From Nitrosopumilaceae archaeon (GTDB lineage: Archaea; Thermoproteota; Nitrososphaeria; Nitrososphaerales; Nitrosopumilaceae), in NCBI GenBank assembly GCA_965208905.1, contig OZ242365.1, forward strand, positions 1,888,001-1,952,000: a DNA stretch of 64,000 nucleotides. The letters are read 5' to 3'. A program made the position numbers and the translations under genes. The number at the start of each line of letters is the position of its first letter. Position 1 is the stretch's first letter. Positions 17,954-21,586 of this stretch are shown here, in pieces. The notes under the pieces were generated by a model that was given only the letters and a program-made list of their open reading frames with translations, was not told where the DNA came from and did no database searches.

Positions 17954-18637
17954 TTGAAAACCACATTAAGTGATTTGGACAAACTGGCGCATGATAATAA
18001 AATGCATCAAGACCGTTGGGTACGCGGTGATTACGTGCCTACCAAATTTGACAAAATAGTAAGCGAGATGGAGTCTACACACGGGGTTGACGCGGTATGG
18101 AACAGTGTTAGAGACATATTGTTGACAACTAACGATGAGTACGTGCGCCGTGAGCTGATCGAAAGTTATGGTAATAGTAAGGTTGATGATGAACACAAGA
18201 TGAGTCTCTTGGAAATGATACTACTCGATGACAAAATCAACAAAACCAGTAAGTCAACGGCGATGAAGGAGTTAAAGGAGCCTTTTTGGGATGATGCTTG
18301 GCCAAAATTTCTAAAGAGATTGTACCGTGTGGTTGACGATGAGGTGCGACAAACTCTCTGTTACGAGTTGGCTTTGATTGATTTTCACACATCCGGTATC
18401 AGGGATGACGCAAACAAGGACGACAACATATATCTTCAAAGACTGGTTTGGTATTTCTGTGAGATGTTGACCGTTTATCCGCGCGACAGAATATTAAGTA
18501 AGGTGGAGGACAAATACGTGCCAAAATACGGCAAGAAACAAGTCGTCAAGGTGTTGAATTTCATCCTGTATAATGAGTATTCAACCGATAGGACACGTGA
18601 TTATGCAAAATATGTTATGGGGAAACTGAACCCATGA
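17954..18637 (+). CDS. Hypothetical alpha-helical (HEAT-like) protein
   Basis: Long ORF with repeated D..VR..L motifs; ATGA overlap with the next gene. Confidence 0.65.
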   Translation: MKTTLSDLDKLAHDNKMHQDRWVRGDYVPTKFDKIVSEMESTHGVDAVWNSVRDILLTTNDEYVRRELIESYGNSKVDDEHKMSLLEMILLDDKINKTSKSTAMKELKEPFWDDAWPKFLKRLYRVVDDEVRQTLCYELALIDFHTSGIRDDANKDDNIYLQRLVWYFCEMLTVYPRDRILSKVEDKYVPKYGKKQVVKVLNFILYNEYSTDRTRDYAKYVMGKLNP

Positions 18638-19155
18638 ATATGTTATCGGATGCACTACGCAAAGTCAACAATAACAACTTTTTACGGGATTGGGGGATAA
18701 AGAGCCGTGAAGAAAAATTACAGGATGGTGATTTTAAAACAATACTAAACGAGTTGAGAGGGAAAACACTCTCCATGTACAAAAATACATTCTCAATGGG
18801 GTTTGCCGAAGATGTGGCCGCCATGGCCGTCAAAAGGAAGAATATACAAAGAACGTCATTTATTGTTTTCAGAAAAGTTGATGGTTGTTTGATGTTTTTG
18901 GATGGTGATGATACAGGTGGTACTGGTGTCGACGCGGTTGACAGAACGCATGTTGTGGCGTATGGTATAGACGAAGATAAATTACTGGAGATTCTAGATG
19001 GTATACATGATGAAGATTTTGTGACCATAGATGAGGATGGAGTCTACAGGGGGTTGGTGCGGCTTGAACGCGGTCAACCAAATCTAACTGAAATTTACGA
19101 TGGTGTATTTTCCGAGAGGAGGTTGAAAGTTTTAGATGAATATAGGAGTTTGTAA
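18634..19155 (+). CDS. Hypothetical protein
   Basis: 173-aa ORF translationally coupled to the upstream gene. Confidence 0.6.
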   Translation: MNMLSDALRKVNNNNFLRDWGIKSREEKLQDGDFKTILNELRGKTLSMYKNTFSMGFAEDVAAMAVKRKNIQRTSFIVFRKVDGCLMFLDGDDTGGTGVDAVDRTHVVAYGIDEDKLLEILDGIHDEDFVTIDEDGVYRGLVRLERGQPNLTEIYDGVFSERRLKVLDEYRSL

Positions 19156-19555
19156 AATACGGAACTTCCATGTGTTTGGGTTGCTAAAACCCATTGATGT
19201 TATGTGTTGGTAATACATTTGGTTCGGTCCAAATGGTATAGGGCTGTCCGATTTTTAAGTATTAGGTGCATCTTTTCGCAAGCTTGGGGTACAAATACGG
19301 CATTATATAGTATGTAAACTCTATCCAAAGTGGTTTGAGTGTATGTCTTATGTAGATTGTGGGCGTATAGGAAATTATGGTGCGCAGAATCCCCCGCGCC
19401 CCCGGGAAAAGGGCAGGTGTTAACCCCGTGAAGTTGCAGATGGTTGGCTTTCTGCTGTATTATTTTTGAGCAACCAGACGGCGGGGAGGTACAAAGGGCG
19501 TTGAGCCGCCCCTCGCTGGGCAGGGGGCGGCGAAACGCCCCCGAACCGGTATGCC

Positions 19556-20643
19556 CTAGGCAATATCCCGGTTGGCCACGCGCCTGGCGTTGGTCATCTT
19601 GCGGTTGGTCATGGTTTAGTTGGGATGGTTATATGGTTCGTTCCTGGTCAGCATGTACCACATGTCCTCTAGCATCTCCCGAGCCGCGGCGACCCGAGCC
19701 TTCTGCGGGCCTCTCCTGGCGGCCAGTCGCTCGTATCTACCCTTGCGGCATGGGTCATGCCGAACAGCCACGAACGCCGCCTCTACGGCCGCGTTCCTGA
19801 GCCAGCGGGATCCGGACTTTGGTGATGCCGCCGGTCCGGACTGTGTCTGCGCTGTTCCTGTGGGACGGCACCAGACCCGCGTAGGCGGTCAGCTGCTCAG
19901 GCCTGGCGAACCGGCCTATGTCCCCTATCTCCGCCAGGACGGTCACCGCGGTGACCGGTCCCACCCTGGGCATGGTCATCATAAGACGGGCCCGCGGGTC
20001 AAAGATGGCTATCCTGCAGATCTCCTTTTCCAGCAGGGATATGCGTCTCTCGGTAGCATCAAGGATATACAGGTGGGAGTCAAGCGCCATCCGGTCGTAG
20101 TTCCGGACGGGTGCGGCCCGCAGCCATTCCATACCCTTGGCCGTGTAGATATTCGGGGGCCTCTTGAGCGGATATTTGGTCAGGATAGCGTGCACATGGT
20201 TCTTGTGTTCGGTGGCGTCGTACCGCAAATCCAGGCGGGTGCGGGTAAGCTCGCGCAGGTCCATCTCTTTCCGGGTGGGAACGTAGGATGGTCTATACAG
20301 GTCCCCCCTGGCCAGGTCGGACAACCTCTCAGAGTCGACATTGTCATCCTTAAACTTTGCCTGGGTGATGATCTTGAGGTCGTACGGGTTGACCAGGACC
20401 GGCTTGATGTCTGTCTCCTCCAGCTCGTTGTGGAGTACCTTCCAATAGTTACCGGTAGACTCAAAGATGGCTATCGCCGGCGTGTACCCGCGGTGCAGCA
20501 TTCTTCTGGCGAACGCGTGTATTCCGTCCAGGTCGTTGCTGAACTCAAACTGGTCTAACACCCTTTTAGATCTTTTCTTGGTGGTGGCCACACATCTTCT
20601 CATGTGTACGTCAATTCCGATGTAATGCAATTCTTTTTTTCAT
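19556..20643 (-). pseudogene. IS110 recombinase/transposase, frameshifted
   Basis: HYIGIDVH, FESTG, KDDNVDS, AYAGLVPSHRNS; +1 indels in A-tracts at about 20634-20640 and 19818-19820; the frame resumes as GSRWLRNAAVEAA..KARVAAAR; probable premature TAA at 19616. Confidence 0.9.
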
Positions 20644-20666
20644 TTCACCTCCTTTTTAGTGGATAG

Positions 20667-20786
20667 TCGGACCTGACCATGGTAAACTTCCATCCGCCCT
20701 CGGAGGGGCTGAAGCTTTTCACGTACCTTGAGCCATTCTGGTAAGCGCCCTCGGAGGGGCCAGTTCCTGTCGACTCTCAGGTCCAA
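20667..20786 (-). ncRNA. Putative IS110 bridge RNA
   Basis: Outer stem GGACCUGA/UCAGGUCC encloses two internal loops, each capped by identical GCCCCUCCGAGGGC; the loop strands match the element junctions; TTATAT about 25 nt upstream. Confidence 0.7.
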
Positions 20787-21160
20787 CAGGAAGAGTACAT
20801 GTGTCGCCGATATAACAACGACACATAGCTTCTGGTAACTTGTTGTGAGATGGGCCACCGCAACGTGCGCATGCAGGCATGCAGCCTGCGCGGCATGTGG
20901 CGGTGCAATACGCCATGGACGTGCACCAGTACGTGGCGGCTGCGCGGCACCTCGATATGCCGCGAGCTGCGGCGGCGCATTGCCGAGGGCCCCTTGGCCA
21001 ATTCGCGCTGAGCCTAAACGCGTACCGACATCAGGATAGTGGAGAGTGGGGGACATGAAGTCTAGACCCAATCTTCTCAAGAACCAACCCGTACCGGTAT
21101 GTGGGACCCTGGCATTTCAAATGCCAACCTTTGGATGCTGTGTATTGCTCTTGAGCGAAA

Positions 21161-21586
21161 CTAGAACGTTTTCTTCTTCTTGAGAAATGCAGTTACTACT
21201 ACTTGGAATACTATCATCGATACGACATGGGAAACTATTGATGTCAAATACGGTTCTATGCCAATCTCGAGAAAATAGTAATGCGTAGACCACCTGATTA
21301 CGAAAAAGATTATCTCGCCAACCACAAGCGCGGAAATGACGTCAAACAATTCTTTCCTGACCAGTTTGGGCTCCATTCCCCTGTGGCGTACCCTGTTGTC
21401 AAGATAGAACAGGGACGAGAAAACCGCAAAAAACGCGAGATACCCTATGGCCACGGCGACTGTAGTGTTGATGTAATTGTCGTAGCCGGCCAAAAGTTGT
21501 GCAGCTACCGTGGACGATGCCTGTGAGGATAGCGAGCAAACAAGGAGGTTTCTGTTAATTTTCAGCAGGTGCTTGTTTAGAATCAC
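21161..21586 (-). CDS. Small four-TM membrane protein (GtrA-like)
   Basis: Hydrophobic pattern, YLDN and GEI..F..RW motifs. Confidence 0.65.
   Translation of the reverse strand: MILNKHLLKINRNLLVCSLSSQASSTVAAQLLAGYDNYINTTVAVAIGYLAFFAVFSSLFYLDNRVRHRGMEPKLVRKELFDVISALVVGEIIFFVIRWSTHYYFLEIGIEPYLTSIVSHVVSMIVFQVVVTAFLKKKKTF

What the first reader, a model, noticed from the sequence alone, without database searches (positions are those of the whole stretch)
19159..20838. Archaeal IS110 with a self-consistent bridge RNA: all four guide strands match its own junctions
Seen: minus-strand 20786-20667 folds into an outer stem holding two internal loops capped by the same 14-nt hairpin (20696-20709, 20747-20760). 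Loop 1 strands GACAGGAACUG and GCUUACCAGAAU match the outside flanks (GGAACT at 19161; TTCTGGTAA at 20830). Loop 2 strands GAAAAGCUUCA and GGAUGGAAGUU match the element ends (AGCTTC at 20827; CTTCCAT at 19165). Both junctions share CTTC, giving target ACGGAA-CTTC-TGGTAA and donor ACATAG-CTTC-CATGTG. Known: IS621-type bridge RNAs have a target-binding loop followed by a donor-binding loop. Unusual here: an archaeal host, TATA-like TTATAT upstream, compact size of about 120 nt, identical caps, a 4-bp shared core, and the recognised top strand antisense to the transposase. The DEDD and Ser residues are intact, so the enzyme could be resurrected.
Basis: partly seen in the sequence, partly recalled or inferred. 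Interest (0 to 1): 0.8.

Follow-up and report, generated by a model that had tools for sequence, protein, structure and literature searches.

The report
Archaeal insertion sequence with bridge RNA
This is a 1,667-bp jumping gene in an ammonia-oxidising archaeon that carries its own two-loop guide RNA for choosing its insertion site, a known kind of system seen here in an unusual layout and backed by many natural examples of reprogramming.

Summary
Window 20669-20786 (minus strand) encodes a 118-nt RNA with an outer stem around two capped internal loops. All four loop strands match the element's flanks and ends at the stated coordinates.

It is more than chance:
- The RNA is conserved in 13 of 151 genomes of the same archaeal order.
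- 30 base pairs are 94% paired, and 11 show compensatory change.
- The loop strands covary with the junctions. 24 of 42 distinct left-flank guide sequences match their own flank by 7 nt or more, against 1.2% of non-cognate pairs.

An empty site in a sister genome fixes the boundaries. The target is TTACC-AG-TTCC on the sense strand, so the core is 2 bp (CT on the window + strand).

The "antisense top strand" is the guide order already published for IS1111-type seekRNAs. The short subterminal repeats with 7/3-bp extensions also fit IS1111. A sister clade carries the same RNA downstream of the transposase. Here the RNA lies upstream, behind a TATA-like box.

All three copies in this genome share a 1-nt frameshift, yet two are identical at different sites.

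Verdict: a real bridge RNA, and a modest new variant of a known kind.

The parts
19165..20831 (-). The insertion sequence: 1,667 bp counted with one copy of the 2-bp core
   Evidence: Three copies in the genome end at the same bases. The empty site L138 lacks exactly this stretch in the L003 copy.
19165..19166 (.). Core copy at the right-end junction (CT on +, AG in the transposase sense)
   Evidence: Occupied L003 compared with empty L138.
20832..20833 (.). Core copy at the left-end junction (CT on +)
   Evidence: Sequence read.
19161..19164 (.). Target half-site GGAA (+), bound together with the core by the 5' strand of loop 1
   Evidence: Shared by all 3 copies. Right-flank guide test.
20834..20839 (.). 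Target half-site GGTAAC (+; GGTAAG in the other two copies), bound together with the core by the 3' strand of loop 1
20669..20786 (-). Bridge RNA (118 nt): outer stem 20784-20777 with 20676-20669, enclosing two stem-loops
   Evidence: Covariance model R1 scores 97.7 bits here. Structure counts.
20730..20776 (-). Target-binding loop: stem 20776-20771 with 20735-20730; 5' strand 20770-20761; cap 20760-20747; 3' strand 20746-20736 (CUUACC + AG for the core + AA in the handshake position)
20678..20723 (-). Donor-binding loop: stem 20723-20720 with 20681-20678; 5' strand 20719-20710; cap 20709-20696; 3' strand 20695-20682 (AUGGA + AG for the core + UU in the handshake position)
20810..20815 (-). 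TATA-like TTATAT, 29 nt upstream of the RNA model start, in the loop of the left-end inverted repeat
   Evidence: A TATA-like word lies at -36..-19 in 34 of 63 family members, against 7 of 63 in a control window. Promoter function is inferred.
20799..20826 (-). Left-end subterminal repeat ATGTGT(CG) and its inverted partner (CG)ACACAT around the TATA-like box
   Evidence: Read. Conserved in relatives.
19165..19211 (-). Conserved right-end terminal module: two ACACAT repeats around a hairpin, then GGA + core
   Evidence: No differences between diverged copies in the last 57 nt. Conserved in relatives. A solo 45-nt copy is at L005.
19818..20630 (-). Transposase, frame 0 (271 codons, TTG start): DEDD RuvC-like domain and the Ser-bearing part of the Tnp domain
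   Evidence: Alignment of a relative to IS621.
19814..19820 (-). Frameshift: AAA GTCC where relatives read AAG CGC (one extra base)
   Evidence: A 401-nt contig of run X1, about 94% alike, lacks one base at 19818.
19616..19816 (-). Transposase C-terminal 66 codons in the +1 frame
20634..20643 (-). Out-of-frame ATG followed by a run of seven A, 3 nt after the GGAGGTG box (20652-20646)
   Evidence: Read. Identical in all 3 copies.

Best explanation
Window 19165-20831 is a site-specific insertion sequence of the IS110/IS1111 superfamily in an ammonia-oxidising archaeon. Its left end encodes a 118-nt bridge (seek) RNA, read in the same direction as the transposase.

Loop 1 reads the target. Its 5' strand, GGAACU, has the sequence of the window + strand left half-site plus the CT core. 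Its 3' strand, CUUACCAG, pairs with the + strand core plus the right half-site.

Loop 2 reads the donor, meaning the joined ends of the excised circle. AAGCUUC covers the left-end side and AUGGAAG covers the right-end side.

The two bases after each 3' guide (AA in loop 1, UU in loop 2) match the other DNA partner, as IS621's handshake guides do.

Recombination at the CT core inserts the circle into GGAA-CT-GGTAA(G/C).

What is shown: the structure, the covariation, the boundaries, the core and the target. What is inferred: transcription from the TATA-like box, binding to the recombinase, and the chemistry.

By guide order and end architecture the element is IS1111-like, but the RNA sits upstream of the transposase gene.

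The transposase gene in this genome carries a 1-nt frameshift.
For: 1. Family. PF01548 and PF02371. NF033542 at 180 bits for the window copy and 233 bits for an intact relative. The intact relative aligns to IS621 (PDB 8wt6, E = 3e-16), with D, E, D, D and the Ser of the ES-G stretch matched.

2. RNA structure. Of 30 pairs, 94.3% of cells are paired against 29.5-45.3% for slid partners. 11 pairs change on both sides. Invariant G-U pairs (for example columns 18-55, 9 of 9) fit only the sense strand.

3. Distribution. Model R1 hits 13 of 151 genomes of the order and 4 of 5 chosen sister genomes. In a phylum-wide sample it hits 4 of 151, all in the host's own family.

4. Guide-to-junction covariation on the 64-row alignment A3.
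- Loop 1 3' strand against its own left junction: mean longest exact match 7.22 nt, against 3.96 for 3,056 non-cognate pairs. Matches of 7 nt or more occur in 39 of 58 distinct rows against 1.2%. That is 24 of 42 distinct guide sequences.
- Loop 1 5' strand against the right junction: 5.59 against 3.50. Matches of 6 nt or more occur in 11 of 17 rows against 10%.
- Loop 2 5' strand against the left-end start: matches of 6 nt or more in 26% of 50 rows against 2.6%, with allele pairs AUGGCA/TGCCAT, AUAGCA/TGCTAT, AUAGUA/TACTAT, AUAGUG/CACTAT and AGCUUC/GAAGCT.
- Loop 2 3' strand: AUGGAAG, AUGGGAG and AUGGAUG track right ends ATGGAAG, ATGGGAG and ATGGATG.

5. Empty sites. L138 in a sister genome joins both flanks of the L003 copy as TTACCAG|TTCC. 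In the clade with the RNA downstream, L074 holds TTTACTAG|TAAATTC, while occupied copies read TTTACTAGG|TGACATG... and ...CATGGGAG|TAAATTC.

6. The exact 11-mer TTACCAGTTCC occurs 6 times unoccupied in the genome, against 2 for the reversed control. One of these sites shares 20 of 21 upstream bases with the window copy's flank.

7. Selection and recent mobility. The window copy and L002 differ at 65 positions, but at none of the first 256 nt (left end plus RNA) and none of the last 57 nt. L002 and L003 are identical over 1,670 nt yet sit in different flanks.

8. The guide order matches the published IS1111 order (passages of PMC11187229). The loop order and handshake logic match IS621 (passages of PMC11208160 and PMC11208158).
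Against: - There is no evidence that the RNA is made. The runs that hold the locus are contigs, and they showed no joint, start or end.
- No Rfam family matches at E up to 1.
- The single-sequence fold is not better than shuffles.
- The 5'-strand guides are short (6 nt here), and such 6-mers recur by chance inside the element.
- Several rows do not fit. 19 of 58 left-flank rows have matches under 7 nt. These include L023, the 73% transposase relative, whose left end is interrupted and whose flank resembles the window copy's target rather than its own guide. They also include L087 and L106. The decayed element B (L006) and L038 do not match their right flanks.
- The rows are related copies, not independent events.
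- All three transposase genes in this genome are frameshifted. No intact close paralogue was found with this query. This copy may therefore be unable to move by itself.
- Orthologous empty sites for the window copy and for L002 were not found in 9 sister genomes.
Confidence: 0.88

Rival explanations
1. The conserved TTACCA and TTCC belong to the element itself. The 'flank' matches of loop 1 would then be internal repeats, for example transposase-binding sites, and not target recognition.
For: All three copies share TTACCAGAAG on the left and GAAGTTCC on the right, so alignment of the copies alone cannot place the boundary.
Against: The empty site L138 keeps TTACCAG and TTCC and lacks only what lies between them. 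The exact 11-mer occurs 6 times without an element. Relatives with other loop-1 sequences have other flanks.
Confidence: 0.02
2. The left-end structure is a cis-regulatory leader of the transposase mRNA, or a DNA-level hairpin set. It would not be a trans-acting guide, and the junction matches would be by-products of site-specific insertion into a repeat.
For: The RNA ends 26 nt before the ribosome-binding box. Expression and protein binding are untested. The targets do lie in repeated motifs.
Against: A leader would not need four loop strands that change in step with flank and end sequences across 24 guide alleles. In one clade the same RNA lies downstream of the gene, where it cannot be a leader. 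The G-U pairs make it an RNA of the sense strand and not a DNA cruciform.
Confidence: 0.05
3. The copy in the window is a dead relic. The RNA and ends are intact only because the copies are young, and nothing here works any more.
For: The 1-nt frameshift is shared by all 3 copies. dN/dS between copies is only moderately low: 0.48 over 271 codons and 0.16 over 66 codons, from few changes. No intact close paralogue is present in the genome.
Against: Two frameshifted copies are identical at two different sites, so a frameshifted copy moved or was copied recently. The left end plus RNA (256 nt) has 0 of the 65 differences that separate the older pair. This rival concerns present activity only, not what the RNA is.
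Confidence: 0.45

Closest known systems
IS621 bridge RNA and recombinase (IS110 group; Durrant et al. 2024, PMC11208160; Hiraizumi et al. 2024, PMC11208158; passages read)
   Same: DEDD plus Ser recombinase. The RNA lies in the left end upstream of the gene. A target loop is followed by a donor loop, each with two guides that end at the core. The core is the CT dinucleotide on the strand that the RNA defines as top. Two bases after the 3' guides match the other partner (handshake positions).
   Different: - In IS621 the 5' guide has the sequence of the sense-strand left flank. Here it pairs with the sense-strand right flank, so the element's cargo is flipped relative to the recombination site.
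- The RNA is 118 nt against 177 nt.
- There is no 5' stem-loop, and an outer stem closes both loops.
- The long guide is the 3' one.
- IS621 rebuilds a sigma-70 promoter only across the circle junction. Here a TATA-like box lies wholly inside the left end.
- Protein identity is low (E = 3e-16 for a relative).
IS1111-family seekRNAs (ISEc11, ISPa11, ISKpn4, ISPst6; Siddiquee et al. 2024, PMC11187229; passages read)
   Same: The guide order is the same: the complement of the top strand comes first, then the match to the bottom strand. There are subterminal inverted repeats, with 7 bp beyond the repeat on the left (counting the core) and 3 bp on the right. The element targets repeated sequences. 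In one clade of the same order (G076) the homologous RNA lies downstream of the gene, as in IS1111.
   Different: Here, and in most family members found, the RNA is upstream of the transposase. The repeats are 6-8 bp rather than 11-13 bp. The right end is also long (about 450 nt here). The host is an archaeon. Placement of the transposase in a tree with IS1111 references was not tested.
Exceptions noted in PMC11187229: ISMtsp17 (IS1111-type with an upstream non-coding region) and ISHvo10 / ISAcp5 (long non-coding regions on both sides)
   Same: The unusual layout is the same, and ISHvo10 has an archaeal host.
   Different: In the passages I read those elements are only listed; their RNAs are not analysed there. 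I have no sequence of them, so relatedness is untested.

Membership tests
IS110-superfamily DEDD transposase | DEDD_Tnp_IS110 (PF01548) plus Transposase_20 (PF02371) domains | tested here: met
   E = 1.2e-22 and 2.1e-16 for window:19755-20630:-. NF033542 at 180 bits against a cut-off of 140.
IS110-superfamily DEDD transposase | Catalytic D, E, D, D and the Tnp-domain Ser are present | tested here: met
   The intact relative L028 aligns to IS621 through IGID, ES/AT, D..D and ESG/DSG. The window copy reads IGIDV, FESTGNYW, KDDNVDS and RNSAD in frame 0. The equivalence of residues is by alignment only.
IS110-superfamily DEDD transposase | Uninterrupted reading frame | tested here: not met
   There is a one-base insertion at 19814-19820, shared by the 3 copies. 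Relatives have open frames of 340-363 codons.
Bridge RNA (as defined for IS621) | Structured non-coding RNA next to the recombinase gene, with two internal loops | tested here: met
Bridge RNA (as defined for IS621) | The strands of one loop covary with the two flanks of the insertion site | tested here: met
Bridge RNA (as defined for IS621) | The strands of the other loop match the two ends of the element (the donor junction) | tested here: met
   The signal for the 5' strand is weaker (matches of 6 nt or more in 26% of rows against 2.6%).
Bridge RNA (as defined for IS621) | A short core shared by target and donor, with no target duplication beyond it | tested here: met
   Empty against occupied sites give a 2-bp core, AG (CT on the other strand), in two subfamilies.
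Bridge RNA (as defined for IS621) | The 5' guide of each loop has the sequence of the sense-strand left partner (IS110-group order) | tested here: not met
   The order is the reverse (set against passages).
Bridge RNA (as defined for IS621) | The RNA is transcribed and bound by the recombinase, and is needed for recombination | not testable with these tools
   Only contigs were available.
IS1111 group | [quoted passage not shown] | tested here: met
   against the passage.
IS1111 group | Subterminal inverted repeats, with about 7 bp (left) and 3 bp (right) beyond them | tested here: inconclusive
   The spacing fits: AG+AAGCT then ATGTGT on the left, and ACACAT then GGA on the right. But the repeat is 6-8 bp, and the paper gives 11-13 bp as usual.
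IS1111 group | The long non-coding region with the RNA lies downstream of the transposase | tested here: not met
   It is upstream here and in the G000, G001, G004-G006, G015, G023, G050, G135, G137 and G159 members examined. It is downstream only in G076.
IS1111 group | The transposase groups with IS1111 references in a tree | not tested
   No IS1111 reference sequence was on hand.

The most novel reading that the evidence does not exclude
One RNA lineage has moved from the right end (G076 clade) to the left end (the clade of the window) while keeping the IS1111 guide order. In the new position it is driven by an archaeal TATA promoter that lies wholly inside the element, so integrated copies would make guide RNA all the time. 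The frameshifted transposase may still be produced by a +1 slip at AAA-G (19820-19817). That reading gives ITK-SGS-RWLRN, the same length as the relatives' ITK-RGS-xxLRN. It would explain two identical frameshifted copies at different sites. If so, this would be a live, naturally reprogrammable recombinase native to ammonia-oxidising archaea.
Probability: 0.2. Interest if true: 0.65.

Novelty: new variant of a known kind. Interest (0 to 1): 0.5.

Why it matters
Bridge and seek RNAs are a recent discovery (2024), and the characterised examples are bacterial.

This locus and its relatives give a compact (118 nt) archaeal family. It offers about two dozen natural guide alleles, two empty-site proofs of a CT core, and handshake positions that follow the IS621 rule. 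That is a ready-made data set on how such RNAs are reprogrammed in nature.

The family also shows the RNA on either side of the transposase gene within a single RNA lineage. This bears on how the IS110 and IS1111 layouts arose from each other.

Ammonia-oxidising archaea are, to my knowledge (recalled, not searched), without genetic tools. A native programmable recombinase with an archaeal promoter would be a practical lead.

The mechanism itself is not new.

Tried and rejected
- **Rfam scan.** An E-value scan of 18500-21500 gave 0 matches.
- **The search for related loci.** In genome contigs with the transposase, it gave only 2 distant bacterial loci, which were of no use.
The sense form TTACCAGAAGTTCC has no exact copy in the genome. 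There were 13 hits with 2 mismatches against 14 for the reversed control, so no signal.
- **Orthologous empty sites for the window copy and for L002.** None was found in 9 sister genomes. The window's right-flank gene has one weak partial match, and its left flank hits a multi-copy repeat instead.
- **Sequencing runs.** Four runs were laid, all as contigs. There was no joint across the element, no circle junction, and no starts or ends. This says nothing about excision or expression.
- **Right ends located by the inverted repeat alone.** This worked for only part of the family. I then located right ends with the loop-2 3' strand, so that strand's match is not an independent test. The allele differences AUGGAAG / AUGGGAG / AUGGAUG are.
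- **Rows dropped from the right-flank test.** It used 19 rows with a clear right end (17 distinct) out of 64 rows. The others are truncated, interrupted, at contig ends, or have the RNA downstream.
- **G076 in the left-flank test.** Its two distinct rows (L074, L122) score 4 in the left-flank test because their left junction is about 1 kb upstream. Read at the true junction they match 9 of 9.
- **tblastn for a transposase next to every RNA hit.** It missed several loci, which are solo or interrupted copies; for example L103 is followed by another element's 496-codon gene.
- **McrA.** The search was negative, so the host is not a methanogen.
Full report
**What is at the coordinates.**
The minus strand of window 19165-20833 holds an IS110-superfamily element. 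From the left end in the transposase sense it reads as follows:
- a 42-nt leader with an inverted repeat (ATGTGTCG ... CGACACAT) around TTATAT;
- a 118-nt structured region (20786-20669);
- a GGAGGTG box;
- a transposase gene;
- a right end of about 450 nt.

The gene hits PF01548 and PF02371. It also hits NCBIfam NF033542, 'IS110 family RNA-guided transposase', at 180 bits against a cut-off of 140.

**The host.**
- The genome's rRNA operon is best matched by the archaeal SSU and LSU models.
- It has four TBP genes.
- It has an archaeal AmoA at 387 bits.
- It has no McrA.

The host is therefore an ammonia-oxidising archaeon. I did not try to name it further.

**Is one copy enough?**
No. The MFE fold of the region shows the outer stem and both arms, but its energy is ordinary (z = -0.98). 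Inside the element only the 9-mer TTACCAGAA is unusual; the 6-mers recur by chance. Rfam has nothing here. The case therefore rests on other copies and on relatives.

**Copies in the genome.**
There are three full copies: the window copy, L002 and L003.
- L002 and L003 are identical over 1,670 nt but sit in different flanks.
- The window copy differs from them at 65 positions.
- None of those differences falls in the first 256 nt (left end, RNA and gene start) or in the last 57 nt.
- The distal right end is about 10% diverged.

The genome also holds these partial or decayed copies:
- a solo left end with the RNA;
- a decayed relative ('B');
- one further RNA copy (L101) and a truncated one (L102);
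- a solo 45-nt right-end piece.

**A conserved RNA.**
Transposase relatives occur in 13 of 41 close genomes. Their upstream regions align with the window's structure.
- With two doubtful pairs removed, 30 pairs are 94.3% paired. The figure is 29.5-45.3% when the partners are slid by 1-3 columns.
- 11 pairs change on both sides, against 5.5 in shuffles (0 of 500 shuffles reach it).
- Several pairs are invariant G-U, which would be C-A on the other strand. The structure therefore belongs to an RNA of the transposase sense strand.

A covariance model (R1) gave these counts:
- 13 of 151 genomes sampled from the order;
- 4 of 5 chosen sister genomes;
- 4 of 151 genomes in a phylum-wide sample, all in the host's family. 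It was not found in the other orders searched.

**Do the loops follow the junctions?**
I fetched 40 further regions and aligned 64 hits to the model (A3). I then compared each loop strand with its own junction and with the junctions of members whose guide differs.

| Loop strand and junction | Cognate mean match | Non-cognate mean | Threshold | Cognate at threshold | Non-cognate at threshold |
|---|---|---|---|---|---|
| Loop 1 3' strand vs a 32-nt window over the left junction | 7.22 nt | 3.96 nt (3,056 pairs) | ≥7 nt | 39 of 58 distinct rows | 1.2% |
| Loop 1 5' strand (reverse complement) vs right junction | 5.59 nt | 3.50 nt | ≥6 nt | 11 of 17 rows | 10% |
| Loop 2 5' strand vs left-end start | not used here | not used here | ≥6 nt | 26% of 50 rows | 2.6% |

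The 39 matching rows for the loop 1 3' strand represent 24 of 42 distinct guide sequences.

Near-identical elements differ in step with their flanks:
- UUACCAGAU pairs with flank TTACCAGAT, while UCUUGAGAU pairs with TCCTGAGAT.
- UUGAUUAGAA pairs with CTGATTAGAA, while UCGAUUAGAA pairs with CCGATTAGAA.

For the loop 2 5' strand the allele pairs are clean: AUGGCA/TGCCAT, AUAGCA/TGCTAT, AUAGUA/TACTAT, AUAGUG/CACTAT and AGCUUC/GAAGCT.

The loop 2 3' strand reads AUGGAAG, AUGGGAG or AUGGAUG where the right end reads ATGGAAG, ATGGGAG or ATGGATG. I used that strand to find the right ends, so only the allele differences count as evidence.

These rows are related copies, so the counts overstate independence. 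The misfits are real and are listed below.

**Boundaries and core.**
A sister genome (L138) carries both flanks of the L003 copy joined as ...GTTTCTTACCAG|TTCCTAATG..., without the element.
- The target is therefore TTACC-AG-TTCC, and the core is AG (CT on the window + strand).
- The element is 1,667 bp in the window (19165-20831, counted with one core copy).

Read on the + strand:
- The target is GGAA-CT-GGTAA(G/C).
- The 5' strand of loop 1 (GGAACU) equals the left half-site plus the core.
- The 3' strand (CUUACC-AG) pairs with the core plus the right half-site.
- The next two bases, AA, match the donor's TT before its core.
- In loop 2, AUGGA-AG pairs with the core plus the right donor half.
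- The next two bases, UU, match the target's AA.

This is the handshake arrangement described for IS621 (passages). In most subfamilies the two bases after the core in the loop 1 3' strand follow the first two bases of their own left end (AA, AU or AC with AA, AT or AC). I read this from the listing and did not count it.

The exact empty-type 11-mer occurs 6 times unoccupied in this genome, against 2 for the reversed control. One of these sites shares 20 of 21 upstream bases with the window copy's flank.

**Which known kind?**
In IS621 the 5' guide (A50-U58) has the sequence of the sense-strand left flank, and the 3' guide pairs with the sense-strand right flank. Here the order is the reverse. 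[quoted passage not shown]

Further evidence for IS1111:
- The ends fit. A short subterminal inverted repeat (ATGTGT / ACACAT) has 7 bp beyond it on the left (core included) and 3 bp on the right.
- In one clade of the same order (G076) the homologous RNA lies downstream of the transposase, 45 nt from the right end. Its guides read the flanks in the same way, and an empty site (TTTACTAG|TAAATTC) lies in the same genome.

In the window and in most members examined, the RNA instead lies upstream. That is the IS110-group position.

The same paper lists a few IS1111-type elements with upstream or double non-coding regions (ISMtsp17, ISHvo10, ISAcp5). It does not analyse them in the passages I read.

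I did not build a transposase tree, because no IS1111 reference sequence was on hand.

**Promoter.**
TTATAT lies 29 nt before the model start. A TATA-like word is present at -36..-19 in 34 of 63 family rows, against 7 of 63 in a control window. This geometry suits an archaeal promoter and lies wholly inside the element. That it works as a promoter is inference.

**State of the gene.**
- Relatives read AAG CGC GGA where the three copies here read AAA GTCC GGA, so one base is extra.
- A 401-nt contig from run X1, about 94% alike, lacks one base at 19818 and carries the relatives' letters beside it.
- Upstream of the lesion, the DEDD residues and the Ser aligned to IS621's nucleophile region are present.
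- The TTG at 20630 aligns with the ATG of intact multi-copy relatives, so I do not count the start as a lesion. However, an out-of-frame ATG followed by a run of seven A sits behind the ribosome-binding box.
- dN/dS between the diverged copies is 0.48 over 271 codons and 0.16 over the 66 codons read in the +1 frame, from few changes.
- No intact close paralogue was found in the genome with this query. Yet two frameshifted copies are identical at different sites.

I leave open whether this means recoding, help in trans, or gene conversion.

**Misfits.**
- L023, the closest intact-looking relative (73% identity), has about 130 extra bases in its left end. The same stretch interrupts another RNA copy, L098. 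Its flank resembles the window copy's target rather than its own guide.
- L087 and L106 do not match their left flanks.
- Element B and L038 do not match their right flanks.
- The solo left end in this genome has a mutated guide beside an intact flank, as expected for a dead copy.

**What is in print.**
- Searches for 'bridge RNA' + 'archaeal' + 'IS1111' and for 'IS110' + 'Nitrososphaera' found no description of this family.
- Archaeal IS110 recombinases are catalogued.
- A 2026 preprint clusters bridge RNAs across bacterial and archaeal intergenic regions (passages).
- Durrant et al. predict bridge RNAs in most ISfinder IS110 and IS1111 entries.

Supplements were closed, so a prior listing cannot be excluded.

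**Verdict.**
The core and the predicted empty site are corrected. The 'unusual' strand choice is the known IS1111 order. What is new is the combination of an archaeal host, an upstream RNA in the IS1111 register, a closing outer stem and an internal TATA-like box. The family also comes with a rich set of natural guide alleles.

Noticed in passing
window 20851-21027: A GC-rich stretch of about 175 nt (about 61% GC in a 45% setting) lies 18 nt from the element. It is a multi-copy repeat in 6 of 9 sister genomes (up to 6 copies each, 74-94% alike) but occurs once in this genome. The alignment fold is stable, yet only 2 of 61 pairs change on both sides. There is no Rfam match. Whether it is a small RNA gene or a miniature mobile element is unclear.
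   Followed up: partly
L135 (G000:C1:1368404-1368453), L134, L136 (G008); window 20834-20860: The left flanks of the window copy and of L002 belong to a repeated motif of about 50 nt (...CTTTCCAAC...ATCTCAC...TTACCAG). Some copies, in this genome and in a sister genome, continue with AAGC, the first four bases of the element, and then with unrelated sequence and no element. Others continue with TTCC, the empty-target form. They could be footprints, half-site recombination products or chance.
   Followed up: partly
L002 and L003 (G000:C1:1374821-1376513 and 1695405-1697108): Two copies identical over 1,670 nt, both carrying the frameshift, lie in different flanks. A +1 slip at AAA-G would give a protein of the same length as the relatives.
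   Followed up: partly
window 20634-20643: An ATG 3 nt after the GGAGGTG box is followed by seven A and is out of frame with the transposase by one base. It is identical in all three copies. The closest relative reads GTG AAA AAG AAA TTG in frame.
   Followed up: no
L004 / L006 (G000:C1:137312-141840): A nest of elements. A solo left end with the RNA is cut right after the ATG. Next comes a 229-codon ORF of another element. Then comes a decayed relative ('B', with stops in its transposase gene) whose right flank TTCCGTA equals that of the window copy.
   Followed up: partly
L005 (G000:C1:1251925-1251969): A solo 45-nt copy of the right-end terminal module (96% alike) ends exactly at the core, next to an unrelated flank.
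   Followed up: no
L023:1190-1340 and L098: The same stretch of about 100-130 nt (GTGATTTGCAAAAAGATTTGGATAAAATGAGG...) interrupts the left end of one element and the RNA of another in genome G006. It looks like a small mobile insert.
   Followed up: no
L065, L074, L079 (G076): In the clade with the RNA downstream, the target lies beside a repeated GC-rich word (CGTGCGGGGGTCCCAC) that is present on both sides of the element and at empty sites. It resembles the REP-type targets of bacterial IS110 and IS1111 elements.
   Followed up: partly
L037:2950-3190 (G006): Two copies of the same element lie about 100 nt apart in the same orientation, each with the same left flank GGTAAGTAGATG.
   Followed up: no
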